Origin: a bacterium
Lineage (GTDB): Bacteria > Elusimicrobiota > Elusimicrobia > UBA1565 > UBA9628
Direction: 5' to 3'
Length of the DNA stretch: 64,000 bases
Assembly: GCA_021810245.1 (NCBI GenBank)
Contig: JAJZJF010000001.1
Span: forward strand, 5,582 to 69,581
Positions 1 to 13,974 of the stretch are shown here, one piece after another (position 1 is the first letter of the stretch; every line of letters starts with the position of its first letter). A program made the position numbers and the translations under genes. The notes under the pieces are model-generated. The model was not told where the DNA came from. It saw nothing but the letters and a program-made list of their open reading frames with translations, and did no database searches.

Positions 1-392
1 CTCCATCTTCAAAAATAAACTGCGAAGGAATTTCTTTCGCGGCTATCTTACAGAATAGGCAGGAACCCATTGATTATCTTTATTATTATAACCTTTCCAA
101 GTCTCTCCCCGCAAGGCTAAGCACGCCCCCCCCAAGTTCAATATGCTATTGCAACACTTTGAAAAGTGAAGACCTGCGGTAGGATAGGCAGGTATGAGGA
201 AATACAAGCGTATAACGTTGCATGAACGAGAAAAGATTGCAGTTTGGAGAAGCTCGTAATCGTATGTCCAGATCCTTCTCGTTAAAGTATAATGTCCTCA
301 CTGGGTATAGCCTCCTGTTCTCTCAAGAACGAGCTATGCCCTTACTTCTTTTCTACCCGCTCATTAAAGTCCGAACTTTATTTTGCGTTATC

Positions 393-474
393 GCGAATGC
401 GAATTTGCTCCTCAAGCCCGGATTAAACAACTATTGACGGCTGAAGACTAGAAAATTAGGGAAGGTGCGGAATT
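393..474. repeat. Left copy of an 82-bp perfect direct repeat (identical to 11016..11097); it also supplies the last 6 codons and the stop of hsdR
   Basis: I aligned the two stretches by eye. 393..474 and 11016..11097 are identical over 82 bp (gcgaatgcgaatttgctcctcaagcccggattaaac...gggaaggtgcggaatt). Confidence 0.9.
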
Positions 475-2774
475 GTTGGGGAGGGGTTTCGTTCATAGAG
501 ATATTTTTGAAAATCAATAAAAGCGGCGCTGATGGATTCAACGCTGCCAAGTGTTTTTATGGCATCGTCCAGCGCGTGATATTTCAGGGTTAAAAGTTCG
601 GGTAGTTTTTCTCGGTCAAGTTCCTCAACCCCGGTTTCAATATACTTGGAGAGGACAAATTCCAAAAACTCTTTCTGGTTTTCGTTTAATGTGTCGAAGA
701 TATCAAACTGGGCTTTGGCTACGCGCATTTCCCGCGTGATCGGTTTTCCCGCGAAAGAAATGTATTCCAGAACATCGAATAAATCGCTTTTTTCGGCGTC
801 AATTAATTTCTGCAAGCTCGCCAGCTCGTCTTTGCCGTATCCGGCGTCATTAAGTTTTTGAAGCAACGATTTGCGCGTAATGGGACTAGACCAGATTTTA
901 CGCAATTCATCTTCGCTCTTAAAAAAATCGGGCAACTTTCCAAACAGATTTCGTAAAAACTCTTCCGCTGAAACGGGCTTGCCGTCGGCGCTCCAAAAAG
1001 ATGTCGCTATCATGTGTTGGATTTCGCGCTCTTTCCCATCTCGAAGTTTAATTTTGATTTTCTTTCTCGGCTGCGACGGCTCAGGTGGATCGGGCGGCTC
1101 AATAGGAGGTTCCTTGGGCCGTTTTATTTTCGGCTCGGGCTCTATCGGTTCTCCGTCCCATTCAGGATCGGCAAAATGATGATAGGCGTTCACAAAATCA
1201 TAAATAGTGAAATACTCTTTGCCGTCAAAAAGCCGCGTTCCGCGTCCGATGATTTGCTTAAACTCAATCATGGAATTAATCGGACGCATAAGAATGATAT
1301 TGCGGATATTGCGGGCGTCCACTCCAGTGGAGAGCTTCTGCGATGTCGTCAAAATGGTCGGGATAGTCTTTTCATTGTCTTGAAAGTGGCGCAAATACTG
1401 TTCTCCCAGAAGACCATCATTGGCGGTGACGCGCACGCAGTAGTTTGGCTCTTTACTCGTTTTGTATTGATTGACTAAATCACGGACGGCTGTCGCATGA
1501 TCTATAGTGGCGCAGAATACGATGGATTTTTCGTTTTGGTTCATTTCAGATAGAAATATCTGCACTCGTTTGGCTTCGCGCTCTTTAATCTCAATGATTC
1601 TGTTGAAGTCAGGCTCTTTATAAAGTTTTTCTTTTTCTATCTCGCCATCTAAGATCCTGTCATCAGCTGTGTAAATATAGTCATCAATCGTAGTCTTAAT
1701 CCGTTTTATTTTAAAGGGCGTTAGAAAGCCGTCATTGATGCCTTCTTTAAGCGAATAGATATACACGGGTTCGCCGAAATAACGGTAGGTGTCCGCGTTT
1801 TCTTGGCGTTTAGGTGTTGCGGTCAGGCCCAACTGAACAGCGGATGAAAAATATTCCATGATACCCCGCCAGTTGCTTTCGTCATTGGCGCCACCGCGAT
1901 GGCACTCATCGATAATAATGAAATCAAAATAATCGGCGGGGTATTGGCCGAAATAAGGCTGGTTGTTGGGGCCGCTCATGAAAGTCTGGAAAATAGTGAA
2001 GAAAATGCTGGCATTGGTTGGCACCGCGCCCGCTTTTTTGATTTCTTCAGGCCTAATTCGCGCTAAGGCATCTTCGGGAAATGCGGAAAATTCATTAAAG
2101 GCTTGGTCCGCCAGAATGTTCCGATCTGCCAGAAACAAGATGCGCGGTCTTCTTGAACCGTCACGCTTCAAATTCCAACGAGTTTGAAAAAGTTTCCACG
2201 CGATCTGAAAGGCGATAAAAGTTTTTCCCGTGCCTGTCGCTAAGGTCAACAAGATGCGCGGATTTCCATCGGCGATGGCAGACATTGTTTTATTGATCGC
2301 AATTTCCTGATAATAGCGGAGACTTCTCGCTCCACCCATATCGTTAAAAGGAACCTGATTAAATTGATCTCTCCAATGGTTTTTTGGGGCAAAAGATTTA
2401 TTCCAGAGTTCATCCGGCGTAGGAAATTTAGCGACCAAGCCTTCTTCACCGGTTTCCATGCAAATCTGATAAATTTCTTTTCCATTGCTGGAAAAGGTCG
2501 TGTCTAAATGGAGTTTCTCGGCGTAATTCTTGGCTTGCCCTACGCCTTCCCCCACTTCTTCCTCATCGCTTTTCGCTTCAAGAGCGGCGAGTTTTCTACC
2601 CTGGTACATCAACACATAATCGGCGATGAGCGGCTTGGCGCGCCCTCCGCCGGTCTGGATTTTTCCGTTAGTAATGCGATATTCCCGAAGGATTTTAGAA
2701 TTCTCGACTACACCCCAGCCGCTCGCTTTGAGCGCGGGATCAATAAGTTCAGCTCTGGTGTCGGCTTCGTTCAT
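456..2774 (-). CDS. hsdR: Type I restriction enzyme R subunit (HsdR, 772 aa)
   Basis: The N-terminus MNEADTRAELIDPALKASGWGV is the characteristic HsdR start. It has the DEAD-box helicase motifs TGTGKT and DECHR. It is the last gene of the hsdM/hsdS operon, and its start overlaps the stop of the upstream gene (ATGA). Confidence 0.9.
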   Translation of the reverse strand: MNEADTRAELIDPALKASGWGVVENSKILREYRITNGKIQTGGGRAKPLIADYVLMYQGRKLAALEAKSDEEEVGEGVGQAKNYAEKLHLDTTFSSNGKEIYQICMETGEEGLVAKFPTPDELWNKSFAPKNHWRDQFNQVPFNDMGGARSLRYYQEIAINKTMSAIADGNPRILLTLATGTGKTFIAFQIAWKLFQTRWNLKRDGSRRPRILFLADRNILADQAFNEFSAFPEDALARIRPEEIKKAGAVPTNASIFFTIFQTFMSGPNNQPYFGQYPADYFDFIIIDECHRGGANDESNWRGIMEYFSSAVQLGLTATPKRQENADTYRYFGEPVYIYSLKEGINDGFLTPFKIKRIKTTIDDYIYTADDRILDGEIEKEKLYKEPDFNRIIEIKEREAKRVQIFLSEMNQNEKSIVFCATIDHATAVRDLVNQYKTSKEPNYCVRVTANDGLLGEQYLRHFQDNEKTIPTILTTSQKLSTGVDARNIRNIILMRPINSMIEFKQIIGRGTRLFDGKEYFTIYDFVNAYHHFADPEWDGEPIEPEPKIKRPKEPPIEPPDPPEPSQPRKKIKIKLRDGKEREIQHMIATSFWSADGKPVSAEEFLRNLFGKLPDFFKSEDELRKIWSSPITRKSLLQKLNDAGYGKDELASLQKLIDAEKSDLFDVLEYISFAGKPITREMRVAKAQFDIFDTLNENQKEFLEFVLSKYIETGVEELDREKLPELLTLKYHALDDAIKTLGSVESISAAFIDFQKYLYERNPSPTIPHLP

Positions 2775-3607
2775 TGGAGTTTCTTTAAGTCTTTGGGCGG
2801 CGGCAAATAGCTTTCATTGGAAATGACTTTTCTGCCGGTTTTGCTTTCTAGTTCTACTCGGGCCTTTTTAGCGATGCTGCCCCCCGTCTTTGCCGCAGAT
2901 TTATTTTCAGTCATTCCGGTGGCCTCAGCGCTTTCAGCGATCTGGCGTGTGGACAATTCGGCAAGAGCGGTAAAGATCAGCTCCGCCTCAGTCATATGGT
3001 CGCGCAGGTTTTGGGTTTTAAGGCCTTTGAGATTTTTATGTTCCTGAACGCTAATGTCGGCCCATTCCTGATGGATGATGTTGGTCAGAATGGCGTATTC
3101 ATCGCCTTTTTTAATTTTATGATTGGCCCAATAATCGGTTAGCTTATTGCGCGTTTCCTGCCCCGTCATGCGCTGCTCAATCCACTTCTCGCTGCGGCCA
3201 TGTTTTTTCCAAGTTTCGCGGGCGCGGTCAAGGGAAAGCGCGGGGTCAGACATCTCTTGCATCCGTTCGTAACCGACTTTTGCCAGCCAGAGTTTAATGG
3301 GTTCGGCCTTTGGGCTGGGAACGCTCTGCACAAGGCGCAAGAGAGTTTCCGCGGTAGCGGCATCGGTCAGCCGCATCTTCCCGTCATCGGCGGCCATTTT
3401 CAACTGGTAACAATTTGATACCAGTTGACTGCCCTCCTTGGCCAAGCGGCCTTTTAAGACCTTCCAATACTTCCTGGCTGCCTGATAGTCCGGCTGTCGC
3501 GTTAGGACTCGGATAATATCTACGACTGAAAACCACCAGGTTTCGGTCTTTTCATCGTAACTGCGGCGAATCTTATGACCTTCGAAAATAGCTAGATTAT
3601 TTAACAT
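2771..3607 (-). CDS. DinD/RhuM-like Bro-N domain protein (DNA-damage-inducible protein D family)
   Basis: The N-terminal FEGHKIRRSYDEKTETWWFSVVDIIRVL matches the Bro-N/DinD pattern, and the C-terminal layout resembles E. coli DinD. A strong AAGGAGG RBS sits 5 nt upstream of the ATG. The ORF overlaps the hsdR start by 4 nt. Confidence 0.7.
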   Translation of the reverse strand: MLNNLAIFEGHKIRRSYDEKTETWWFSVVDIIRVLTRQPDYQAARKYWKVLKGRLAKEGSQLVSNCYQLKMAADDGKMRLTDAATAETLLRLVQSVPSPKAEPIKLWLAKVGYERMQEMSDPALSLDRARETWKKHGRSEKWIEQRMTGQETRNKLTDYWANHKIKKGDEYAILTNIIHQEWADISVQEHKNLKGLKTQNLRDHMTEAELIFTALAELSTRQIAESAEATGMTENKSAAKTGGSIAKKARVELESKTGRKVISNESYLPPPKDLKKLQ

Positions 3608-3700
3608 TGCATCCTCCTTGATGGCCCATGATATGTATACGATTAGTGGCGCTATTTAGTTCCATTGCTAAGAGTTTTCCACTTGCCGTTCCATAATGTC

Positions 3701-3840
3701 TCATCGGTGGCGGCATCGGCCAGTCGCATCTTGCATCTTCCCATTATCGGCGGCCATTTTCAACTGGTAACAATTTGATACCAGTTGACTGCCTTCTTTG
3801 CCAAGGCGCTCTTTGAGTTTATTCCAATACTTCCTAGTGG
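3701..3840 (-). pseudogene. Diverged partial duplicate of the central part of the DinD-like gene (about 35 codons, RKYWxKLKxRLxKEGSQLVSNCYQLKMAADxGKM)
   Basis: The nucleotide stretch around 3730..3835 is near-identical to around 3368..3470 (ggcggccattttcaactggtaacaatttgataccagttgactgcc...). There is no matching N-terminus, and the reading frame is broken by an indel after GKM. Confidence 0.7.
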
Positions 3841-3872
3841 AGTGTCTTCCATAAATCCATTTACAGTCCGTC

Positions 3873-3963
3873 ACCCCGGCAATCCGTAAGCCGGGGTCCA
3901 GACGCAAGCCTCCTGTCAATTTCAGCCGATCTCTCAAGCCTGGATTCCGGCTTCCGCCGGAAT
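3873..3963 (-). other. Two GC-rich perfect hairpins (accccggc/gccggggt at 3873..3897; attccggc-ttcc-gccggaat at 3944..3963) downstream of the RT gene, with no following T-run
   Basis: The 8-bp perfect stems were read directly from the sequence. They are not followed by U-tracts on the transcribed strand, so they are not classical intrinsic terminators. Confidence 0.5.
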
Positions 3964-4004
3964 GACGAGGGAGCCAAATGGAAAGAAGCGTTGGAGCGAC
4001 TAAA

Positions 4005-5654
4005 CTATTTGGCATTGGCGCCCCTCGGCGATTTGGAATTTTTCGTTGATGATGCCTTAGTTTTTGACGGTGTATGAGGCCTAGAAGGAAATTGGAGGAA
4101 TCTGAAATTCGATTTCTTTAAGATGGATAAAAATGATTGGGCATTCCTTTCCAGATCTTTAGCCGACCATGTTTGATAGATGAGTAGCCATTGCCTGTCG
4201 CGTGCGCGTGAATCGTCGGATTTTAAAGCGTCGGATCTAATTTGAATTTCTTTTTGAATTAGCTTCAGATTGTGGCGTTTAGAATATTCCAGTAAAAGCA
4301 CGGAGAGAAGGCAATCATTCAAATCAAGCGCTTTTAAGAGTTCGGATTCCTGTAGTTTTAGATGGGTCTCATGCTTCAGTGCGTAGTAAAGTGCATACGC
4401 TATTGCATCGGGATAAATCTTCTTGAGCCCAATACGAATCAGATTCGCTGCAAATCCCGCCACAGCAACACCCAGTTTTTCATGCGGATATTGGTCAAAG
4501 ACATGTTGGTCCAAAATGGGAGCTAGGTATGGATAAGCGAGTACCAGGTTGATGGCCTCTTGGAGATACATCTTCCGCGCTCGCTGGTTGAGGTTTCTCG
4601 GCATCATTTTAATTGCGTAATTAAGAGGAGAGGATGTGCTATTTAATTGCGAAAGCTCAATGGCCAAATCAAGAAAAGAACGGATATTTGAATACTTGAC
4701 GTCTTCACCACTAGGAAATACAAATCGATTCAACTCCCGAACCCAATTTTCCTCGCTTGGCCTAGGGAGGGGAAATATCCGTGTCTTCTTCTCATTGATC
4801 GTCAACTCGTATTCTCTTAAGGCTAACCCGAGGTCATGGAGGAATTGTTCGGCTTCATCACGCGAGTCAGCGTAGAATTCGTAATCATCGATGTACCGTT
4901 TTAATTTGGTGTATCTCTTTTTCAACATTTCATCATCGATGTGGGTTAGAATAATCTCAGAAATGATATTTGAAGCGTGTGGTCCTATTAGCAATCCATT
5001 GGTCTGACTATCGCGAGTGTGCTGCGTGCACTGATCAAGCATATTCCCATACAGCGTCAGTAGGCGATGGTCTTTCTTAGCGGCATTGCGGCCATGTAGT
5101 GCCCATGGAATTGAATGTGTGTAGATGCTGGGAAAGCACGCTGAGATATCCGTTTTAGCGATGTATTGTGCGCCTGCCATCCACTGGAGCTCGTTCTCCT
5201 CTAACTCAAAGCGATCTGAACCCTTATAATTCATTTCAAAAATCCGACCTCCACTTAGTGGGCGTACATAAACCTGACTCACTCTTCTCTTCGGCTTAGC
5301 GTAATGCGCACGGAGTTTGTCCCAGTGTTGTTTGATAGCGAGTGCTTGAACGGAATAGCTCTCTGGATGAGGGATGCCGAGGTGACGGGGAATGTTAATA
5401 TCGCGTAGCGCCGCATAGCGTATATAGTCATGCGAGCATTTCTTGAGGACTTTCTTAAGTTTTTCCTCATTGGACTGAGAGAAGATATTTTTGAAATGAT
5501 TGCGAGCCATTTCTGCTAGGCCCTTGGAGGTAAAGCAAGGTGGTGGTTTCTCGCCGAAAAGACCGTGATCCAAGAGACCGATTAAGATCGCATCGGCAGT
5601 TAGTTCTCTGTTTCGGGCCAGGAATATTTTCATTGCTGGTTCATAGTTGGCCAT
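4005..5654 (-). CDS. Stand-alone reverse transcriptase (549 aa) of Abi/DRT-like defence type, with an RT domain and a C-terminal alpha-helical domain of about 220 aa
   Basis: RT motif 1/2 is TDISACFPSIYTHSIPWAL, and the finger/palm region is GLLIGPHASNIISEIILTHIDDEM. The catalytic motif C is YIDDYEFYA (YxDD). There is no maturase/X domain, endonuclease or Cas domain. The ATG sits 14 nt upstream of the hsdS stop, so the two are translationally coupled. Local GC is lower, about 40%. Confidence 0.8.
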   Translation of the reverse strand: MANYEPAMKIFLARNRELTADAILIGLLDHGLFGEKPPPCFTSKGLAEMARNHFKNIFSQSNEEKLKKVLKKCSHDYIRYAALRDINIPRHLGIPHPESYSVQALAIKQHWDKLRAHYAKPKRRVSQVYVRPLSGGRIFEMNYKGSDRFELEENELQWMAGAQYIAKTDISACFPSIYTHSIPWALHGRNAAKKDHRLLTLYGNMLDQCTQHTRDSQTNGLLIGPHASNIISEIILTHIDDEMLKKRYTKLKRYIDDYEFYADSRDEAEQFLHDLGLALREYELTINEKKTRIFPLPRPSEENWVRELNRFVFPSGEDVKYSNIRSFLDLAIELSQLNSTSSPLNYAIKMMPRNLNQRARKMYLQEAINLVLAYPYLAPILDQHVFDQYPHEKLGVAVAGFAANLIRIGLKKIYPDAIAYALYYALKHETHLKLQESELLKALDLNDCLLSVLLLEYSKRHNLKLIQKEIQIRSDALKSDDSRARDRQWLLIYQTWSAKDLERNAQSFLSILKKSNFRFLQFPSRPHTPSKTKASSTKNSKSPRGANAK

Positions 5655-6792
5655 GAAAGGCTTGGCGCAACAGCGATTTCTTCAACTCATCAAGCGCGGC
5701 GAGTTTTTTCTTATAGATGGCTTCGAGATACTGGGTTTCATTCGACAATTCATTGAGTTTTTCAGTAATTTTGATCTGTATCGCAAGCGGAGGAATATTG
5801 ATGGGAAACCCCCTAAGATAACCAAGGCCAACGAACTTTTGTGTCGTACCCCTGGCATCCTTCATCATTTTTGAAATTACCAAACCTGAACCCAAGTAAT
5901 ACTTCAGAAACGCGCCATTTTGTCCTGGAGGGACCTTGAACAATGCGACATTCTTTATCGCAAACTTTGGCTCAATAGTTACACGCGTTGGATTGCCAAT
6001 CGTTCCAATCATCGCAAACAATACGTCTCCTTTGTGAACCGCGCTTCGCTCGTTGATTTTATTGTAATCCTGTTCATTGATCAGATTAACTTTATCGAAC
6101 GATAACCCTTCATGTTTTAGGTTCTTCGATGTTATTAATGGGTAACCGGTCTCATGATATTTCGGCGAATCGTGTGTCCCATCGCGAACATCATACACTT
6201 CTCCCAAACTGGCTTTCACCCACCCCGCGCCGCGCTGGGTAAAGATGGTTTGCAGATGACTTTCAAAAAGCTCGCGGGCATTTCGCAGGTTCTTTTCGGC
6301 GTTGGCTTTGGCTGTGGCGATGCCGTCAAATGCTTTGTCGAGGATGCCGACGATGCGCTTTTGTTCAGGAAGCGGAGGGCATGGAAACTGAAGATCGTAC
6401 AGGGCATTCTTATCGAGATGTGGAATTGCAGCGCCAGTTTTCGCTCCATTGAAGACTTCAAATGTAGAAGCCAAGAATGCCCGAAGGTAGTTGTCATCAA
6501 TTTCCGCTTTCTTGGAAATTTTTCCCATCGTTGAAGAAAGAATGCCTCGGAACCCGGTAAATACTTCGCCAGAATTTGACCCATCACAAATGATGATAGT
6601 CTCTGATGTTTCGACAGCGATGGAGTTTCGATCTTTAAGCGACGCGTATTCAGCATCTTTGCTATTGCGCATAACCTTTGCGACTAAGTAAGGCAAGTCG
6701 CCATTCAATGGAGTTCTTTTTAAAACTGGTTTGCGGCCCTTGATTATTTCACAAACATCGCCAAGACGCTTATATTGCCACCCGTTTTTCAT
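5641..6792 (-). CDS. hsdS: Type I restriction-modification specificity subunit (HsdS)
   Basis: The conserved central HsdS spacer LPEQKRIVGILDKAFDGIATAKANAEKNLRNARELFESHLQ is present, with two variable target-recognition halves. It lies between hsdM and hsdR. Confidence 0.85.
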   Translation of the reverse strand: MKNGWQYKRLGDVCEIIKGRKPVLKRTPLNGDLPYLVAKVMRNSKDAEYASLKDRNSIAVETSETIIICDGSNSGEVFTGFRGILSSTMGKISKKAEIDDNYLRAFLASTFEVFNGAKTGAAIPHLDKNALYDLQFPCPPLPEQKRIVGILDKAFDGIATAKANAEKNLRNARELFESHLQTIFTQRGAGWVKASLGEVYDVRDGTHDSPKYHETGYPLITSKNLKHEGLSFDKVNLINEQDYNKINERSAVHKGDVLFAMIGTIGNPTRVTIEPKFAIKNVALFKVPPGQNGAFLKYYLGSGLVISKMMKDARGTTQKFVGLGYLRGFPINIPPLAIQIKITEKLNELSNETQYLEAIYKKKLAALDELKKSLLRQAFHGQL

Positions 6793-6841
6793 ATCAGCAA
6801 CTTAATTTTCCCTAGCACTCCCGCGCTTTCGGCGTCCAGCG

Positions 6842-7675
6842 CTACTCATCGCCGTCCTTCTTGCCTTCCCTCAACTTTGGCAAACGCCGATCGCCGCTGA
6901 GTATGCGCATTTGTTGGATGGCGATTTGGTTCAGGCGGCGAAGACGCTCGGATTGGACGTGGCCTTCAGCGATAAAGAGCGCATTGAGGTTTTCTAAGTT
7001 AGACAAGCAGACAAGCTGGGCGCTACCGGCCTGATCCCGGATATTTCCTTTTTTGCCTGGATTTTCCCCGCGCCATTGGGCTGCGGTCTTTCCGAACAGC
7101 GCCATGTTTAGCACGTCGGCTTCACTGGCATAGATCAGAGCAGTTTGCGCAGGACTTAACTCAGGCGGAATCAAGTGTTCGCGTACGGCATCGGTGTGAA
7201 TGTGGTAGTTGAGTTTGGCGAGGTTGCGCCGGATGTCCCAGCCGAGCGTCTTATGCTCTTCCTCCTTAAGTCGCTGGAATTCCTTGATGAGATAAAGTTT
7301 GAACTCGACCGAAATCCACGACGCGAATTCAAAGGCGATGTCCTTATGGGCATAGGTGCCGCCGTAGCGCCCGGCTTTGGAAATAACGCCGACGGCGGCG
7401 GTTCTCTGTATCCACTGCTTGGGGGTCAATGTAAAGCTATTGAGCCCGGCCAACTTTTTAATCCCGTCGAATTCGACGGGATTAAAAGCGGGGTTATTGA
7501 TCTGTTCCCAGACCCCTAAAAATTCGATGGTGTTGCGGTTCCGTAGCCAATTGCGGATAAGATCATCGGTGGCATCTTTGTTCTTATAGCGGGCGATGTC
7601 GGTGAGACAGATATAATCCTCTTCCGCGACCGTCAGCATTTGGATCTCACGGCTTAGCACATTGAGCTTGGCCAT
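6842..7675 (-). CDS. KilA-N domain protein embedded between hsdM and hsdS
   Basis: The N-terminus MAKLNVLSREIQMLTVAEEDYICLTDIARYKNKDATDDLIRNWLRNRNTIEFLGVWE matches the KilA-N pattern. The ATG lies 1 nt after the hsdM stop (TAGAATGGCC), and the ORF track start at 7747 is an upstream over-extension. Confidence 0.75.
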   Translation of the reverse strand: MAKLNVLSREIQMLTVAEEDYICLTDIARYKNKDATDDLIRNWLRNRNTIEFLGVWEQINNPAFNPVEFDGIKKLAGLNSFTLTPKQWIQRTAAVGVISKAGRYGGTYAHKDIAFEFASWISVEFKLYLIKEFQRLKEEEHKTLGWDIRRNLAKLNYHIHTDAVREHLIPPELSPAQTALIYASEADVLNMALFGKTAAQWRGENPGKKGNIRDQAGSAQLVCLSNLENLNALFIAEGHVQSERLRRLNQIAIQQMRILSGDRRLPKLREGKKDGDE

Positions 7676-7676
7676 T

Positions 7677-9137
7677 CTATTTTGGAAGCAACACTTTGAT
7701 ATCCCCCAGCGCCTTTGCGCTTTCGGCGTCCAGCGCGGCAATTTCATCCATGATTATTTTTGGGTCGCGGAGAACTGTTTCATCTTTCTTGTGCGGATTT
7801 TTTACTGAGAGGTCAAAAGTATTTGTATCAACATTGGCAATATTGATTGACCATGAATTTTCTGAATCGGCTTTGGTTTTTTGCAATTTCACGAATTCCG
7901 CCAAGTCATTTTCATTGAGCGGATTGGTCTTGCCGAGGTTTCGGTCTAAATTGAGTTGGTAAAACCAAATTTTGCGCGTGGACGCGCCCTTCTCAAAAAA
8001 CAGCACGACTGTTTTTACGCCTGCGCCTTGAAACGTGCCTCCGGGGCAGTCCAGAATTGTATGCAGATTGCAATTTTCTAGCAAAAGTTTTCGCAGACTG
8101 ACAGAGGCATTATCGGTGTTGGAAAGAAACGTGTTTTTGATCACGACACCCGCCTTGCCCCCCGCTTTCAGTATTTTGATGAAATGCTGGAGAAACAGAA
8201 AAGCGGTTTCGCCGGTCTTAATCGGAAAATTTTGCTGGACCTCGGCGCGTTCTTTGCCGCCAAACGGCGGATTGGCAAGAACGATGTCATAACGGTCTTT
8301 TTCCTGAATATCGGCTAAATTTTCCGCGAGGGTGTTCGTATGCACGATATTGGGGGCTTCGATGCCGTGCAAAATCATATTCATCGTGCCGATGATATAG
8401 GCGAGTGATTTTTTCTCTTTGCCGTAAAAGGTCTTTTTTTGAAGCGTTTCCGAGTCTTTGGTATTTAGGCTCTTGCTGGTTTTTAAGTATTCAAACGCTT
8501 CGCACAAAAAACCCGCCGATCCGACTGCGCCGTCATACACTTTATCGCCTATGCTGGGCGCTACCACCTTAACGATGGTTTTAATGAGTGGACGGGGCGT
8601 GTAGTATTCGCCACCGTTTCTGCCCGCGTTGCCCATATTCTTGATTTTGCCTTCATAGAGATGCGACATCTCGTGTTTTTCGGCGCTGGAGCGAAAGCGC
8701 AGTTCATTAACGCGGTTGATGACCTCGCGCAGGTTGTAGCCGCTTTGGATTTTATTTTTGATCTCGCTGAAAATTTCGCCGATCTTGTATTCGATGGTGT
8801 CAGCGCTTTCGGCCGAAGTATTAAATTTTTTGAGATAGGGAAACAGTTTTTGATCAACAAAATCTTTAAGGTCATCGCCCGTCAAGGCTTTGTGGTGGTC
8901 AATTTTTCCGTCTTTATCTTTGGGAAACGCCCAGACTTCCCATTGATATTGTTTGTCGATAATCCCGTCATAGGATTTGCCGGAAAGCTGGGCGGCAGTT
9001 TTTTTGTCTTTCTCAAAATCATCCAGATATTTTAAAAAGAGAATCCATGAGGTTTGCTCCACATAATCTAATTCGCTGCTGCATCCCGCATCTTTGTGAA
9101 GTATGTCGTCTATGTTTTTAAAGGTTTGTTCAAACAT
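7677..9137 (-). CDS. hsdM: Type I R-M N6-adenine DNA methyltransferase (HsdM)
   Basis: It carries the NPPFGG catalytic motif (LANPPFGGKERAE) and an N-terminal HsdM-type domain. It is followed by hsdS and hsdR on the same strand. Confidence 0.9.
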   Translation of the reverse strand: MFEQTFKNIDDILHKDAGCSSELDYVEQTSWILFLKYLDDFEKDKKTAAQLSGKSYDGIIDKQYQWEVWAFPKDKDGKIDHHKALTGDDLKDFVDQKLFPYLKKFNTSAESADTIEYKIGEIFSEIKNKIQSGYNLREVINRVNELRFRSSAEKHEMSHLYEGKIKNMGNAGRNGGEYYTPRPLIKTIVKVVAPSIGDKVYDGAVGSAGFLCEAFEYLKTSKSLNTKDSETLQKKTFYGKEKKSLAYIIGTMNMILHGIEAPNIVHTNTLAENLADIQEKDRYDIVLANPPFGGKERAEVQQNFPIKTGETAFLFLQHFIKILKAGGKAGVVIKNTFLSNTDNASVSLRKLLLENCNLHTILDCPGGTFQGAGVKTVVLFFEKGASTRKIWFYQLNLDRNLGKTNPLNENDLAEFVKLQKTKADSENSWSINIANVDTNTFDLSVKNPHKKDETVLRDPKIIMDEIAALDAESAKALGDIKVLLPK

Positions 9138-9759
9138 GGCGATTCCTCAATTGTTGATTCATTGGAAGCAAGAGCTTATTTATGGGAAGGCTCTTTTCCT
9201 TCTTAAAAAAATAATCGAGATTTTCTTTCCCTCCCGGCAGCAATTCCTTCGATTCGGAATCATAATGCATCCATTTAGGATATCCCCATTGTTCCTGAAG
9301 CCAAAAGATGTTCTCCCAATCCTCCGAATCGGCATAGTGCTCTTTCTGTATGGATGCCTTGGTAATATAAAAATAGGGAGCAAAAAAATCGAAGAGACTC
9401 TGGCGGACAGTGTCACGGTTCACTTTCTCATTTTTTATTAGGTAGCCTAGGTTTTCGAAGAAAATCATTATTGGAGCGTAAACTCTTTCTAAAGCATCTT
9501 TATCTGCGCTGGACCTTTTACAGGAATAATGAAGGGCGCAGAGCCCTCTATCTCCTCTAAGAGTGTATGCGAATTCATTCCACATCAAACGCCACAAATC
9601 GACTTGTGCCTGCTGAATTTGATGGTTTAACGTCTTATTGGCGGTCCTCGTAGTCCACAAAGCGGCAAAGGCGGCTCCGGCTGTTGCAATTGCCCCTACC
9701 GCCATCCAAAAGGTAGACGAGACAAGTAATTTTAAATATATCCAATGACTAGGGCACAT
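9130..9759 (-). CDS. Uncharacterised protein with an N-terminal transmembrane helix (209 aa); first gene of the hsd operon
   Basis: The ORF has a hydrophobic N-terminus (LKLLVSSTFWMAVGAIATAGAAFAALW) and its stop overlaps the hsdM start by 8 nt. I found no recognisable domain. Confidence 0.5.
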   Translation of the reverse strand: MCPSHWIYLKLLVSSTFWMAVGAIATAGAAFAALWTTRTANKTLNHQIQQAQVDLWRLMWNEFAYTLRGDRGLCALHYSCKRSSADKDALERVYAPIMIFFENLGYLIKNEKVNRDTVRQSLFDFFAPYFYITKASIQKEHYADSEDWENIFWLQEQWGYPKWMHYDSESKELLPGGKENLDYFFKKEKSLPINKLLLPMNQQLRNRHV

Positions 9760-10163
9760 CGGCTTAATTTTAGCATTCTAAAATACCGTGTAACTGCTCT
9801 TGCGTCTCTCCCCAGCAATTCCGCACATCGCAGCGGAAGCGTCGGAAAATGTGGCGAAATCCAAGCTGGCAGATTCGCGGATCATGATTTTGAGCCTAGG
9901 AGCGACGCGGAAGCGGCGTGACGGTCATAAAATCAAGACCGGCCCCAACACCGCCGCCCCAGCGGCTTGCCAGGGTGGTAGGATAATATTGCGCGGCAAG
10001 ATAATAGTCTAAGGAGGTTGCGCCCAAAAGGATTCCAGCTTCTGTAAAACCAAGTCATCCATGAATAGCCGTGATAGATGTAGCCTGGTGCGGCCTTGAC
10101 GCTGCGGCCGCTTGAGATTACGGTCAAAGAACACCGTCGTTAAAAAGAACGCTAAAAAAAGAA

Positions 10164-10989
10164 TCATAAAATTGGCCAGCATCGCTTGGTGAACCGCTTT
10201 AATAACCGCAGACCCGCCGAAGCCTCCGTATCCCCCGGCAAGAGCGGCTCTATATCCAGTTCAAGGACGGGCGTAACGCCAACCAACTGCAACACAACGT
10301 AGCGATGGTAATATTGGGTTTTTATTCCGCCCTCGACTTTAATGTCTCGCCTCATGCAGCCAGGACAGCGCCGCTTAAAGCTGCAGTAGGGTTCCTGCCC
10401 ATCTAATGCGCCGACCCAAGGATCCCAGCGGGCGGGGATTTTTAACTCCTGCCCTAGAGCGTTGTGGCTGCCCAGGCGCATGGCGTGCATCCCAAATTCG
10501 CTCAGCCACACCGCCCGAACGGGAATTTGAGGTTCTAAGCGCCCATCATGAACATGGGACAATAACTCCTCAAAATCCCATGTCCGCTCCAAATACTTCG
10601 CAAAGCGCGACAACACTTTCTTTTTAGGCTTTTCCCCTTCCGATTTCCTTCCAACGTTCATCCCCAACAATCGCAAGAAGCCTCCGCGCTTCTTGGTAGC
10701 TCTTGGCCCAGTCTCGAATCTCATCAAGCTGCTTGGGCGGGATGCTTTTCATTCTCATTTTCCCATGTTGGCTTTGGCTGGCATACCATGAGATATGCCA
10801 GTAGCGCTTCCCCTTAGCGCAGCGGCAGGTGGCCGTGCCGCAATACCGCTTCATGGGAACCAGGTTGGCTCTCAATATCCCTCTGCTGCCGTTCATTATT
10901 TGACGAAGGCGGGCGCGAGCCGTCCGTTCTTTAGCTGATTTTAACGCCATGACGACCTCCTTAAACATGATATTACTAATATATATCAT
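10164..10989 (-). pseudogene. Zinc-ribbon (CGTATCRCAKGKRYW...) protein split into two overlapping frames (121 aa and 187 aa); possibly a degraded mobile-element recombinase or transposase gene
   Basis: Two same-strand ORFs (10624..10989 and 10164..10727) overlap by 104 nt in different frames. Cys-rich motifs are present (CxxxCxC and CSFKRRCPGC). It sits 26 bp inside the right direct repeat. Confidence 0.4.
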
Positions 10990-11015
10990 GTTATAGCGAT
11001 AAAGTCAAGCAAAAT

Positions 11016-11097
11016 GCGAATGCGAATTTGCTCCTCAAGCCCGGATTAAACAACTATTGACGGCTGAAGACTAGAAAATTAGGGAAGGTGCGGAATT
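11016..11097. repeat. Right copy of the 82-bp perfect direct repeat
   Basis: Identical to 393..474. Confidence 0.9.
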
Positions 11098-11232
11098 ACA
11101 GACGACCCTCAAGATTCTGACTGATTTTATCCGACGATGTTGCTGGGGGAACGAACTCTTTTGGTTAAAAAGCGTATTAGGGTTGGGCGATTTAAAATGC
11201 CTAAAGAAACGATAAAAGGAAGGGATATTTGT

Positions 11233-12144
11233 ATGAAAAGCTCTATCAATGGCATGGCCGAGGAGTTCCGCTCCCAACTTAACAAACCAGGCGCCGTCGA
11301 ACTTCCCGGCTGCTACGACGTCTTAAGCGCGATGATTCTTGAGGAGGCCGGGTTTAATGCGGTTTTTCTCAGCGGCTACGGAGTCGCGGCGAGCATGCTG
11401 GGCAATCCGGACATCGGTCTTACTAGTTTAGCCGAAACGGCGGCAGCGGCAAAGAGCGTGGTCAATGCGTTAAAAATTCCGATAGTAGTTGACATCGACA
11501 ACGGCTACGGCAATGAAGACAATGTCCTCCGTGTAATTCACGAACTCGAATACTCCGGGGTCGCCGCAGTGATCATGGAAGACCAGATCATGCCCAAGCG
11601 CTGCGGCCATTCCGGAAACAAACAAGTTATTCCGATTGAGCAATACATGGCCAAATTAGAATGCGCTTTAAAAAGCAGGCAGACGCCCATGACGGTCATC
11701 GCCCGCACCGATTCCATGGATCTAAGCGAAGCGATTTCCCGCGCCAAGATGTTTCACTCCGCGGGAGCGGATGTGACGCTCATTGATGGATTGTCGTCGC
11801 GCGACGCAATCAAACGGGTCGCCGATGAAGTTCCTGGGCACAAACAAATTAATCTCATTTATGGAGGAAAGACGCCGCTTCTCTCTGTTAAGGAGCTCGC
11901 CGAACTTGGGTTTAAAGTCGTTTTATACTCCACGCCCGCGCTTTACGCGGCGGCTCAAACGCTTCTTGAGTCAATGCGCCGATTACGAGAGTCTCATGAT
12001 ATCAACTCAATCTCGAGCGAGAGTATTCCGTTTAAGAATTTTCAGGAATTTATCGAGAGGAAATACGCTGAAAGAAACGCTCGCAAATTAGAGCGATCTA
12101 ATCACAAATCCACGACTGCTCCATCATCGGCGGCGATAAGATAG
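11233..12144 (+). CDS. PEP mutase/isocitrate lyase superfamily enzyme (2-methylisocitrate lyase or carboxyvinyl-carboxyphosphonate phosphorylmutase-like)
   Basis: Characteristic sequences VFLSGYGVAAS, DIDNGYGNEDNV and GVAAVIMEDQ are present. The AGGAAGG RBS sits 8 nt before the ATG at 11233, so the 11137 ORF start is likely an over-extension. Confidence 0.75.
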   Translation: MKSSINGMAEEFRSQLNKPGAVELPGCYDVLSAMILEEAGFNAVFLSGYGVAASMLGNPDIGLTSLAETAAAAKSVVNALKIPIVVDIDNGYGNEDNVLRVIHELEYSGVAAVIMEDQIMPKRCGHSGNKQVIPIEQYMAKLECALKSRQTPMTVIARTDSMDLSEAISRAKMFHSAGADVTLIDGLSSRDAIKRVADEVPGHKQINLIYGGKTPLLSVKELAELGFKVVLYSTPALYAAAQTLLESMRRLRESHDINSISSESIPFKNFQEFIERKYAERNARKLERSNHKSTTAPSSAAIR

Positions 12145-12156
12145 CTCAGAGATTCT

Positions 12157-13974
12157 TTATTTTTTCTGGGGCAGAGGCGGCGCCCTATTAGCCAGACCGT
12201 TTCGCATCCCCATAATTGTTTTTAATCGCGCACGCAAAACCTCCTCTTTCTTTTGAAGGTCTCCTTGGGTTAGGGTTTTCCGACTCGCGATCGTTAAAGC
12301 AGCATTCTTTAAGGCAAATATGGAAGCTTCAAAAAAATCCTCGACTGTTTTTTGCGCTTCACCCGCCGTTGCCTCAAGCCTTATCTCATAATCATAACGC
12401 AATCTCCCGGCATTGACATCCATGGCCTCTTCCACCTTCCTCTTGAGGGCCTTTAAAAAAATAGATTTAAACATCCGCAGCGTCGGCATAGGCAAGAAAC
12501 TCCTCTCCCAAATCGGAACTTCCTCTAAAACAAACCAGACGGTGGGCGGAGAAACGATAAGCGTGGGTTTATGGACAACCTCGTGTTCGGTTTTGGCAAC
12601 CGCGCAAACTTCTTTAAGAGACTCGTTAAGCATATCCGTTGCATTTTCCAAATATCTATCCGTTATCTCTTGAAAAGTTTTGGCCCAATGAGGCTCTTCT
12701 TTTTCCAGATACCGAAGAAAAGACGTCTCGACGGAATTTAAAAAATACCTATTGAGCTGGGAACGAATTTTCGATGAGGACTGATGACAAATATTTTGGT
12801 AAAGCGCCGTTAATTGGGCCGTTATTTCCTTCAATTGAATTTGAACGTATTCATACAAGTCTTCCTGCATCGTCCGAATATGGTCTTTTAAATCGCAACG
12901 ATAGAGTTTTGAAAGTTCATATTGCCGTCGGCGAGTTGTTTCTAAAATTTGTTTAAATACCGCTTCTTGATTTTCAATATCTTGCGCGGCCTTGGTTAAT
13001 GACCCCAGCTCAAGTTCAATTTCAAGACAAAGATTTCCAAGAAGGCGTTCCGCTCTCTCTGATACCGATTGTCTCAAAAGATTTCTTTTTCCCTCGATCA
13101 TGAGATGGTTTAAAGAGTCCTCAAGACTCTGCATGCCGCTTTGCCGCCACAACTCGGCATCCGCGTTTTTCTTGGCCTCAAGACCTCGCTTGGCGGAAAT
13201 GGGAAAGAGGAGCGCATTCCCTTCGCCCAAGACCGATCGAAGCGCGCTTCTTATAAATCGGAGCGACTGTTCCAGTTCTTCGGTGGAAAAATAATCCACC
13301 TTGTTGACAATCACATAAAGCCTTTTCGTCCAGCGCCGAATGGAGTTGAGAAATTCCAATTCCAACTCGCTTATCGGCGGATCCACGCTTAAGACCAAGA
13401 TCATGGCATCGGCCTTGGGAAAATAGCGTTCGGCAACTTGCGTGTTGTGTCGGTAGATGGACCCCACTCCCGGCGTATCAACGAGGATGGTCCCTTCGCG
13501 CAGGAAGGGAGATGGGATATCGACGATGACCCTATCCACTTTCTTTTCATTCTTTGGGTTGCGGTCCTCGGCCACGAAATCGGGGATATGGTTGAAGGAT
13601 ATGTTCTCCCGGTGTCCGCCTAAAAACTCGACATTGGCCGCTTTCTCTTTGCCGCAGCGCACCAAGGTGACCACCGAAGTCAGCGGCACGACGGCCATCG
13701 GCAGAACTGGCTCGCCGACCAAAGCGTTAATCAGCGTGGATTTCCCACGCTTAAAAGACCCGACCACCACGATTTGAAGCTCATTTTCAGACAGTTTACG
13801 CTTGAGTTCCTGCAGCCGTGAATTCAAATCTTCCCGGCCGATTTCGGCCAAAAAATCAGAAATACGATCAAGATATCGCTTCGCTCCATCCAGGCTCATT
13901 TGGCCTGCGCCTAATGAACAAAGCGCGGCTTCATTTAACTCAATGAAATTGGATGATTCGTTTTTTAAGGCCAT
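12157..13974 (-). CDS. Bacterial dynamin-like GTPase (605 aa)
   Basis: G1 P-loop GSFKRGKSTLINAL, G3 DTPGVGS and G4 NKVD are present, followed by a long helical C-terminal region. Confidence 0.75.
   Translation of the reverse strand: MALKNESSNFIELNEAALCSLGAGQMSLDGAKRYLDRISDFLAEIGREDLNSRLQELKRKLSENELQIVVVGSFKRGKSTLINALVGEPVLPMAVVPLTSVVTLVRCGKEKAANVEFLGGHRENISFNHIPDFVAEDRNPKNEKKVDRVIVDIPSPFLREGTILVDTPGVGSIYRHNTQVAERYFPKADAMILVLSVDPPISELELEFLNSIRRWTKRLYVIVNKVDYFSTEELEQSLRFIRSALRSVLGEGNALLFPISAKRGLEAKKNADAELWRQSGMQSLEDSLNHLMIEGKRNLLRQSVSERAERLLGNLCLEIELELGSLTKAAQDIENQEAVFKQILETTRRRQYELSKLYRCDLKDHIRTMQEDLYEYVQIQLKEITAQLTALYQNICHQSSSKIRSQLNRYFLNSVETSFLRYLEKEEPHWAKTFQEITDRYLENATDMLNESLKEVCAVAKTEHEVVHKPTLIVSPPTVWFVLEEVPIWERSFLPMPTLRMFKSIFLKALKRKVEEAMDVNAGRLRYDYEIRLEATAGEAQKTVEDFFEASIFALKNAALTIASRKTLTQGDLQKKEEVLRARLKTIMGMRNGLANRAPPLPQKK

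What the first reader, a model, noticed from the sequence alone, without database searches (positions are those of the whole stretch)
393..11097. 10.6-kb Type I R-M/RT island bounded by perfect 82-bp direct repeats
Identical 82-bp sequences at 393..474 and 11016..11097 bracket exactly the segment holding the whole minus-strand defence operon. A frameshifted zinc-ribbon gene lies just inside the right repeat. Long direct repeats flanking a defence cargo are the signature of a site-specifically integrated or recombination-mobilised island, with attL/attR-like duplication. The left copy also supplies the last codons and stop of hsdR, and the right copy lies in the upstream region of the PEP-mutase-family gene. 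No intact integrase is present, so mobilisation would need a trans-acting recombinase or homologous recombination between repeats. The repeats could mediate excision or loss of the defence island.
Basis: seen in the sequence. Interest (0 to 1): 0.75.

Follow-up and report, generated by a model that had tools for sequence, protein, structure and literature searches.

The report
Insertion-sequence ends flanking a defence island
The two identical 82-bp sequences are real, but they are the end-piece of a decayed transposable element (an insertion sequence) rather than integration sites, so this is an ordinary relic of mobile DNA around a restriction-modification/reverse-transcriptase defence island.

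Summary
The perfect 82-bp direct repeat (393-474, 11016-11097) is real. It appears in independent assemblies and has only two copies in the window. It is not an att duplication.

The repeat is the 5'-terminal region of a two-gene insertion sequence: orfA (DUF6788 zinc-ribbon protein) plus a roughly 413-429 aa DDE transposase. An intact relative in an unrelated contig (L018) carries the same sequence (88% identity) at the same place, starting at the element tip.

- **Right copy:** the end of a resident but dead IS copy (window 9813-11101). It has 14-nt terminal inverted repeats, an intact orfA, and a transposase with two internal deletions.
- **Left copy:** a solo 82-nt IS-end remnant in the same orientation, fused to the very end of hsdR.

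A related lineage (L012/L013) has HIT directly next to the PEP-mutase gene, so an empty site exists. That site contains no 82-mer. The inserted DNA there corresponds to window ~120-11102. This also includes an IS30-family fragment (120-253) and 139 orphan bases.

The island is an IS-littered accessory insertion in a rearrangement hotspot, with no integrase and no working transposase. The kind is ordinary and interest is low. Whether the two IS copies delivered the cargo or inserted independently is unresolved.

The parts
1..70 (-). 5' end of the HIT-family gene (runs off the window); first gene of the HIT-rpsU-dnaG-rpoD block
   Evidence: Gene calls and Pfam in L007, which is 100% identical to the window
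71..119 (.). Ancestral HIT upstream DNA. Homology to all relatives ends at ~119, a recurrent breakpoint
   Evidence: blastn of the window against L012-L017
120..253 (+). Fragment (5' end plus first ~20 codons) of an IS30-family element
   Evidence: 97.6% identical to L017 up to position 253. The L017 ORF hits NCBIfam IS30 transposase at 186 bits
254..392 (.). 139-nt orphan sequence of unknown origin between the IS30 fragment and the left repeat
   Evidence: Matches only same-strain contigs; no Rfam hit
393..474 (-). Left 82-nt repeat: a solo remnant of the IS 5' end (IS positions ~5-86), same orientation as the right copy. It supplies the last 5 codons and stop of hsdR
456..2774 (-). hsdR (Type I restriction subunit, 772 aa). 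Essentially full length; the junction with the IS end falls at the native stop region
   Evidence: Pfam ResIII/EcoEI_R_C and PADLOC REase_I. Homologues end 2-7 aa after the conserved 'LY'; this protein has 12
2771..3607 (-). Bro-N domain gene (PADLOC candidate PDC-S13) embedded in the R-M operon
3701..4015 (-). 104-aa ORF, a partial duplicate of the Bro-N gene N-terminus
   Evidence: Repeat D1; PDC-S13 partial hit
4005..5654 (-). Drt4-like defence reverse transcriptase
   Evidence: NCBIfam Drt4 437.5 bits (cutoff 450), PADLOC Drt4 507.6 bits
5641..6792 (-). hsdS specificity subunit
6842..7675 (-). KilA-N domain gene (PADLOC candidate PDC-S22) embedded in the R-M operon
7677..9137 (-). hsdM methyltransferase subunit
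9130..9759 (-). 209-aa ORF with no family match
9813..11101 (-). Resident, decayed copy of the insertion sequence (~1.29 kb against ~1.9 kb when intact)
   Evidence: Aligns in three blocks to the intact IS in L018. About 136 and 477 nt of orfB are missing
9813..9826 (+). 3'-end terminal inverted repeat CAGCAATTCCGCAC
   Evidence: The AATTCCGCAC motif occurs only 3 times in the window: here, inverted, and in the two repeats
10009..10661 (-). Remnants of the DDE transposase orfB: the N-terminal 165 aa plus a C-terminal ~35 aa in another frame
   Evidence: Homologues are 413-429 aa and some pass the Pfam DDE_Tnp_1 cutoff
10624..10968 (-). orfA, a DUF6788 zinc-ribbon protein (114 aa, intact)
   Evidence: Pfam DUF6788. 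The same orfA+orfB pair is present in L018 and L020-L023
11016..11097 (-). Right 82-nt repeat: the 5'-terminal region of the resident IS, upstream of the orfA promoter
11088..11101 (-). 5'-end terminal inverted repeat CTGTAATTCCGCAC. The tip lies 4 nt beyond the repeat edge
11102..12144 (+). Ancestral DNA resumes: PEP-mutase upstream region and gene (11197-12144)
   Evidence: Homology to the empty-site contig L013 resumes at 11103; gene call

Best explanation
The 82-bp repeats are two copies of the 5'-terminal region of an insertion sequence. Its structure is ~1.9 kb: tips CAG(C/T)AATTCCGCA, then ~85 nt of leader, then orfA (a DUF6788 zinc-ribbon protein), then orfB (a distant IS4-superfamily DDE transposase of ~413-429 aa).

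The right copy is the end of a resident IS at 9813-11101. That IS is dead because two internal deletions remove the core of its transposase. The left copy is all that remains of a second IS copy in the same orientation. Its end was joined to the last codons of hsdR, and the rest was lost by deletion, leaving 82 nt next to 139 orphan bases and an IS30 fragment.

The R-M/Drt4 cargo therefore sits between remains of two directly oriented IS copies. This is the structure left by a composite transposon, by an IS-mediated cointegrate, or by Campbell-type recombination between IS copies. It lies in a rearrangement hotspot between the HIT-rpsU-dnaG-rpoD block and the PEP-mutase gene.

**Shown:**
- The repeat is an IS end.
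- The resident IS has inverted repeats and internal deletions.
- The empty site lacks the repeat.
- The insertion boundaries differ from the repeat edges.

**Inferred:**
- A full second IS copy once existed on the left.
- The IS pair delivered the cargo.

Today nothing in the island can move it. The only route to loss via the repeats would be host homologous recombination across 82 bp, and no product of that was seen.
For: 1. **Intact relative.** The L018 IS carries the repeat sequence at its 5' end. The match starts at the tip and runs to the orfA promoter, at 88% over 84 nt and 89.5% over the first 695 nt.
2. **Different flanks.** DNA beyond the tip differs in three contexts: hsdR, PEP-mutase upstream, and the L018 flank.
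3. **Inverted repeat.** The partner CAGCAATTCCGCAC lies at 9813-9826. The 10-mer occurs only at these three places in 64 kb, against 0.17 expected.
4. **Transposase homologues.** orfB homologues are 413-429 aa. Two pass the Pfam DDE_Tnp_1 cutoff. They sit on ~2-kb contigs with a DUF6788 orfA.
5. **Mobility of the family.** A more distant member (L020-L023) occurs in at least 3 flanking contexts with sharp common ends. It keeps the 18-nt motif GAGCAAATTCGCATTCGC that forms the inner end of the repeat.
6. **Empty site.** Contigs L012/L013 join window 119 to window 11103 with no 82-mer.
7. **No target duplication.** The resident IS has none, as expected if its two flanks come from different events.
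8. **Parallel case.** In L019 a HAD gene reads into the same kind of IS tip and stops there, just as hsdR does here.
9. **No integrase features.** No tRNA, Rfam family or integrase is present.
Against: - The left repeat stops 4 nt short of the inferred IS tip. It has CAAC where the right copy has CTGT and the consensus is CAGY. The hsdR/IS junction is therefore either a tip variant or a breakpoint, not a clean transposition junction.
- No contig shows a full second IS copy left of hsdR.
- No other locus shows this cargo between such IS copies.
- The target-duplication length (9 bp) rests on one inferred case in a distant family member.
- No intact identical IS copy was found, so activity in this genome is unproven.
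- The IS family is not in any curated IS model.
Confidence: 0.82

Rival explanations
1. attL/attR duplication. A circular island carrying an attP identical to an 82-bp chromosomal attB integrated site-specifically; the recombinase is now missing or acts in trans.
For: Perfect direct repeats bracket the cargo. The region is accessory.
Against: - The unoccupied site in L012/L013 has no copy of the 82-mer, and the insertion boundaries are ~120 and ~11102.
- The 82-mer is the tip region of an IS with inverted repeats.
- There is no integrase and no tRNA or tmRNA target.
Confidence: 0.03
2. Independent insertions. The R-M/Drt4 island arrived by some other route. Two copies of a then-active IS later inserted separately at its two edges, in the same orientation by chance, and decayed.
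For: - The site is a hotspot that also collected IS30 and, in relatives, IS1634 elements.
- Same orientation has a 50% chance.
- The IS family inserts at gene 3' ends elsewhere (L019).
Against: A simple insertion of the resident IS should leave a target duplication, and none is seen. The duplication length for this family is poorly established. The right IS tip coincides with the outer boundary of the whole insertion, which fits the IS being the element that made that junction.
Confidence: 0.3
3. Only one IS copy ever existed. An 82-nt piece of its end was copied or translocated to the hsdR end by illegitimate recombination or template switching.
For: The left copy lacks the outer 4 nt of the tip and ends abruptly on both sides.
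Against: There is no microhomology or mechanism-specific signature. Truncated solo IS ends from deletion of a full copy are far commoner. The perfect orientation and near-tip boundary are naturally explained by a second copy.
Confidence: 0.08
4. Assembly artefact or chimeric join at a repeated k-mer.
For: Short Logan contigs break at the repeat (L010).
Against: The arrangement is identical in independent assemblies from different samples and pipelines. Both repeat-spanning junctions lie inside k=141 contigs.
Confidence: 0.01

Closest known systems
IS-bounded accessory regions: composite transposons such as Tn10/Tn5, or IS-mediated cointegrates, after decay
   Same: Cargo genes lie between two same-family IS copies or their remnants. 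No integrase is present. The cargo is absent from a related lineage. The element tips carry terminal inverted repeats.
   Different: One flank is reduced to 82 nt and the other has a deleted transposase. No target duplication or second locus demonstrates movement as a unit. The IS copies are in direct orientation; Tn10 and Tn5 have inverted copies, although direct-orientation composites and cointegrates are also known.
IS4-superfamily (DDE_Tnp_1) insertion sequences
   Same: The transposase has weak to significant PF01609 matches. Tips begin with CAG, as many IS4/IS5-type ends begin CA or CTG (from general knowledge). A 9-bp target duplication is possible. The size is ~1.9 kb.
   Different: No curated NCBIfam IS-family model matches. 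The element carries an extra upstream orfA of family DUF6788, for which no paper was found in the library.
Integrative genomic islands with att direct repeats (tyrosine-recombinase islands at tRNA or gene 3' ends)
   Same: Direct repeats flank a defence cargo, and one repeat completes the 3' end of a gene.
   Different: There is no integrase. The repeat is absent from the empty site. The repeat belongs to an IS. The completed gene (hsdR) is cargo, not a chromosomal target.
Type I R-M operons with embedded defence genes (PrrC-type; 'guilt by embedding', bioRxiv 10.1101/2024.01.29.577857)
   Same: hsdM/hsdS/hsdR are interleaved with a Drt4-like RT and two PADLOC candidate genes (PDC-S13, PDC-S22).
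   Different: This describes the cargo, not the repeat. The particular combination was not looked for elsewhere.

Membership tests
Site-specifically integrated island (attL/attR) | Integrase or recombinase gene in or next to the island | tested here: not met
   Pfam, NCBIfam and PADLOC scans of all main ORFs found no recombinase
Site-specifically integrated island (attL/attR) | The unoccupied site retains one copy of the repeat (attB) | tested here: not met
   L012/L013 join window 119 to 11103 with no 82-mer
Site-specifically integrated island (attL/attR) | The repeats mark the exact ends of the inserted DNA | tested here: not met
   The left end of the insertion is ~120, which is 273 nt outside the left repeat. 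The right end is ~11102
Insertion sequence (DDE type) | Terminal inverted repeats | tested here: met
   CTGTAATTCCGCAC (11101-11088, minus strand) against CAGCAATTCCGCAC (9813-9826): 12 of 14 match, 10 of them contiguous. L019 has the same tips
Insertion sequence (DDE type) | Encodes a transposase | tested here: met
   The orfB remnant is homologous to 413-429 aa proteins. P0253 and P0260 pass the PF01609 cutoff (27.4 and 26.7 bits against 23). The window copy itself is internally deleted
Insertion sequence (DDE type) | Same unit with sharp common ends in different genomic contexts | tested here: met
   L018, L019 and L020-L023 have different flanks
Insertion sequence (DDE type) | Target-site duplication | tested here: inconclusive
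   One inferred 9-bp duplication (AACATTTCC) in the distant L020/L022 member. None is present around the window copy
Curated IS families (IS4, IS1634, IS701, IS5 and others) | Score above the NCBIfam family cutoff | tested here: not met
   No family reaches its cutoff. The best is IS4 at 25.9 bits against a cutoff of 115
Composite transposon | Two functional or recognisable IS copies flanking the cargo | tested here: inconclusive
   One decayed copy plus one 82-nt end
Composite transposon | The same IS-cargo-IS unit at another locus, or a target duplication at its outer ends | not testable with these tools
   The left outer end is deleted. All contigs with the cargo share this locus
Type I restriction-modification system | hsdR, hsdM and hsdS all present | tested here: met
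   Pfam and PADLOC hits
DRT type 4 (Drt4) | Score above the NCBIfam equivalog cutoff | tested here: inconclusive
   437.5 bits against a cutoff of 450. PADLOC Drt4 scores 507.6 bits

The most novel reading that the evidence does not exclude
The DUF6788-orfA insertion-sequence family might mobilise adjacent defence cargo using a full copy plus a solo 5' end in direct orientation. The roughly 86-nt leader ends in a family-conserved 18-nt motif, and this leader would act as a self-sufficient recombination module. In that case the 82-bp repeats would be functional ends of a Type I R-M/Drt4 transposition unit rather than debris.
Probability: 0.05. Interest if true: 0.5.

Novelty: new member of a known kind. 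Interest (0 to 1): 0.18.

Why it matters
This result shows that long perfect direct repeats around a defence island do not by themselves indicate att sites. An empty-site comparison plus an intact copy of the repeat's parent element settled the question.

The biology is ordinary: IS elements accumulate at, and probably carry, defence cargo in a chromosomal hotspot. Two modest points remain of value.
- A two-gene IS group (DUF6788 orfA plus a distant DDE transposase) is not covered by curated IS models. It now has defined tips and a defined leader.
- The window documents a Type I R-M operon with a Drt4-like RT and two candidate defence genes embedded in it.

Tried and rejected
- **Collection scans, uninformative.** An exact empty-site pattern gave 0 hits in metagenome contigs and genome contigs. 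A 30-mer core of the repeat gave 0 hits in genome, metagenome and viral collections. The JGI contig known to carry two copies was not returned either, so these collections do not hold the source population and the negatives carry little weight.
- **tRNA and Rfam searches.** Nothing was found in or near the repeats. A small-RNA or tRNA target is rejected.
- **Promoter and terminator scan.** Nothing beyond chance around either copy.
- **First inverted-repeat search.** A 20-mer at up to 3 mismatches missed the 14-nt inverted repeat. A 10-mer search and direct reading then found it.
- **First reading of the L019 tip was wrong.** I first took CTGTAATTC as the tip. The local alignment showed the true tip is CAGCAATTCCGCA, further upstream.
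- **'CTG' as a 3-bp target duplication.** Considered for the resident IS and rejected. Those bases belong to the inverted repeat shared by all copies.
- **MITE reading of 254-474.** Rejected because no 3' inverted repeat lies in 254-392.
- **Origin of 254-392.** No match outside same-strain contigs.
- **DUF6788 literature search.** No paper found.


Full report
**1. Observation**

The repeat finder and an approximate pattern search confirm two 100%-identical 82-nt direct copies at 393-474 and 11016-11097. Similarity does not extend beyond either edge. The 64-kb window holds no third copy even at 3 mismatches, and no shuffle gave two matches.

The arrangement is not an assembly artefact. Contigs from independent samples and assemblers are 100% identical to window 1-12774 and carry both copies. 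These are ENA ERZ27236973 (MEGAHIT k141, L007) and JGI 3300033990 (L008). The repeat is shorter than k=141, so each junction is directly supported.

Between the copies, all on the minus strand, lie these genes:

| Coordinates | Gene |
|---|---|
| 456-2774 | hsdR |
| 2771-3607 | Bro-N gene |
| 3701-4015 | 104-aa ORF |
| 4005-5654 | Drt4-like reverse transcriptase |
| 5641-6792 | hsdS |
| 6842-7675 | KilA-N gene |
| 7677-9137 | hsdM |
| 9130-9759 | 209-aa ORF |
| 10624-10968 | DUF6788 gene |
| 10164-10661 | overlapping 165-aa ORF |

The left repeat provides hsdR's last five codons and its stop...ERNPSPT|IPHLP*.

**2. Flanks and the empty site**

Left of the window lies HIT-rpsU-dnaG-rpoD. To the right lie a PEP-mutase-family gene and a dynamin-like GTPase gene. 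All contigs carrying the identical PEP-mutase or GTPase protein have the island's right end next to PEP-mutase.

A related lineage has a PEP-mutase 92% identical in protein. Its contigs L012 and L013 have HIT directly adjacent to PEP-mutase. blastn shows window 1-119 matching L013 578-696 and window 11103-12357 matching L013 699-1956. Only two bases separate the two blocks, and no 82-mer is present.

The DNA inserted in the window therefore runs from ~120 to ~11102. The right repeat ends 4-5 nt from the right boundary. The left repeat lies 273 nt inside the left boundary. An att-type duplication predicts one repeat copy in the empty site and repeats at the exact ends of the insert. Neither holds.

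**3. What the repeat is**

The 165-aa ORF next to the DUF6788 gene is homologous to the N-terminal part of 413-429 aa proteins. These are found on ~2-kb contigs, and two of them pass the Pfam DDE_Tnp_1 cutoff.

One such contig is L018, from the same study and in an unrelated flanking context. It has an intact pair: DUF6788 orfA plus a 429-aa orfB. The DNA upstream of its orfA is the reverse complement of the 82-mer, at 88% identity over 84 nt. Homology begins at the element tip (L018 ...gga|CAGTAATTCCGCA...) and continues through a conserved promoter/palindrome into orfA.

The window copy aligns to L018 in three blocks: 11099-10409, 10419-10179 and 10188-9944. About 136 nt and 477 nt of orfB are missing.

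At 9813-9826 the plus strand reads CAGCAATTCCGCAC. This is the inverted partner of the 5' tip CTGTAATTCCGCAC (11101-11088, minus strand). The 10-mer core occurs only three times in 64 kb, against 0.17 expected: at this site and in the two repeats. L019 shows the same tips, 5' CAGCAATTCCGCA and 3' ...GCGGAATTACTG.

A more distant member (57% identical transposase; L020-L023) occurs with sharp common ends in at least three different flanks. It keeps the 18-nt motif GAGCAAATTCGCATTCGC that forms the inner end of the 82-mer.

The 82-mer is therefore the 5' leader of an insertion sequence. The right copy belongs to a resident, dead IS at 9813-11101. The left copy is a solo end in the same orientation. 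An intact IS used as a query matches the window nowhere else.

**4. The rest of the left flank**

Window 120-253 is 97.6% identical to the start of an IS30-family element. In L017 that element sits at the same junction (position 119) next to HIT, with an IS1634-family element nested in it. Window 254-392 matches nothing outside same-strain contigs.

Other close relatives have yet other neighbours at position ~119: DUF190/CrcB in L014 and L015, and unrelated genes in L016. The HIT upstream region is a recurrent breakpoint and insertion hotspot.

**5. The hsdR junction**

Full-length hsdR homologues end 2-7 residues after a conserved '...Q.xLY' motif. The window protein has 12 residues after it, and the last five come from the IS end. 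The junction therefore lies at the native stop region, and hsdR is essentially intact.

In L019 a HAD-hydrolase ORF likewise reads into the IS tip and terminates there.

One detail is unresolved. The inferred IS tip extends 4 nt beyond the repeat (consensus CAGY). The right copy has CTGT and the left has CAAC. The left junction is either a tip variant or a breakpoint 4 nt inside the tip. A chance 3-of-4 match has a probability of about 9%, so this cannot be decided.

**6. Mechanism**

*Shown:*
- The repeats are IS ends.
- One IS copy is resident but has lost its transposase core.
- No integrase, tRNA or Rfam element is involved.
- The empty site lacks the repeat.

*Inferred:* a second full IS copy once lay left of hsdR. 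The cargo would then have sat between two directly oriented copies. That structure is produced by a composite transposon, by an IS-mediated cointegrate, or by homologous recombination of an IS-bearing circle with a resident IS. Later deletions reduced the left copy to 82 nt.

The resident IS lacks a target duplication. This fits its two flanks coming from different events. However, the family's duplication length (9 bp) rests on one inferred case.

The main rival is two independent IS insertions at the edges of an island that arrived otherwise (about 0.3). The att reading is about 0.03 and an artefact about 0.01.

The 82-bp identity could still support rare RecA-type deletion of the island. 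No single-repeat site was seen among the contigs carrying the identical flanking genes. The exact-pattern scans were negative but uninformative, because those collections did not return even the known JGI contig.

**7. Comparison with known systems, and novelty**

This works like, and is best filed with, IS-bounded accessory regions. The IS itself belongs to the DDE_Tnp_1 (IS4-like) superfamily but matches no curated NCBIfam IS family. Its orfA family DUF6788 has no paper in the searched library. It is a new member of a known kind.

The cargo is a Type I R-M system with embedded Drt4-like RT, PDC-S13 and PDC-S22 genes. This follows the described 'embedded defence genes' pattern (bioRxiv 10.1101/2024.01.29.577857).

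**8. Verdict**

| Item | Assessment |
|---|---|
| Observation | Confirmed |
| att/integration interpretation | Not supported; only the general idea of an accessory, mobile-DNA-associated island holds |
| Interest | Low (0.18) |
| Most novel reading not excluded | The 86-nt leader is a functional end allowing a full IS plus a solo end to mobilise the cargo; about 5% likely |

Noticed in passing
window 456-9137: The Type I R-M operon is interleaved with three other genes. These are a Drt4-like reverse transcriptase (4005-5654), a Bro-N gene matching PADLOC candidate PDC-S13 (2771-3607) and a KilA-N gene matching PDC-S22 (6842-7675). This is an example of defence genes embedded in an R-M system.
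   Followed up: partly
window 3373-3475 and 3733-3835; ORF 3701-4015: An 85%-identical 103-nt direct repeat. The 104-aa ORF is a partial duplicate of the N-terminus of the Bro-N/PDC-S13 gene.
   Followed up: partly
L001/L025 (GCA_027406885.1, DAHZHU010000001.1) against window ~2800-3079: A variant contig is 100% identical to the window from 3079 rightwards. It then diverges inside the Bro-N gene, lacks hsdR, and continues into HAD/ROK/ABC/SpoIID/RpiB/PGI genes. Several other assemblies break inside Bro-N (L009, L028, L030). This could be a real hsdR-less variant or a mis-join at a paralogous Bro-N segment (125 nt at 92%).
   Followed up: partly
window ~119; L012-L017: Position ~119 upstream of HIT is a recurrent breakpoint. 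Close relatives have PEP-mutase, DUF190/CrcB, unrelated genes, or IS30 plus IS1634 elements there.
   Followed up: partly
window 120-253; L017 1659-2669: A fragment of an IS30-family element (MRKYKRITLHEREKIAVWRS...) cut at 253. The fuller copy in L017 is itself interrupted by an IS1634-family element.
   Followed up: yes
window 254-392: A 139-nt orphan sequence between the IS30 fragment and the left repeat. Nothing similar was found outside same-strain contigs. Its end next to the repeat (ATTTTGCGTTATC) loosely resembles, in inverted orientation, the sequence that follows the repeat inside the IS.
   Followed up: partly
window 10969-11015 (minus strand); L018 723-784; L019 and L020 equivalents: A palindrome (ACATGATAT...ATATCATGT) overlaps a good TTGACT-N17-TATATA promoter upstream of orfA. 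It is conserved across IS family members and may be an autoregulatory operator. The 18-nt motif GAGCAAATTCGCATTCGC just upstream is conserved even in the 57%-identical family member.
   Followed up: no
L019 236-844: A HAD-hydrolase ORF reads into the 5' tip of a related IS and terminates inside it. This parallels hsdR in the window and may mean this IS family tends to land at gene 3' ends (n=2).
   Followed up: no
L011 (ERZ27237410) 1-90: A strain with a 98%-identical PEP-mutase has the right repeat with one substitution (T>C at repeat position 70) and different downstream genes (DUF190, CrcB, DUF3015). The contig ends 5 nt beyond the repeat, so its island status is unknown.
   Followed up: no
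window 9130-9759: A 209-aa ORF overlapping the hsdM start by 8 nt has no match in Pfam, NCBIfam or PADLOC. It may be a further embedded gene of the operon.
   Followed up: no
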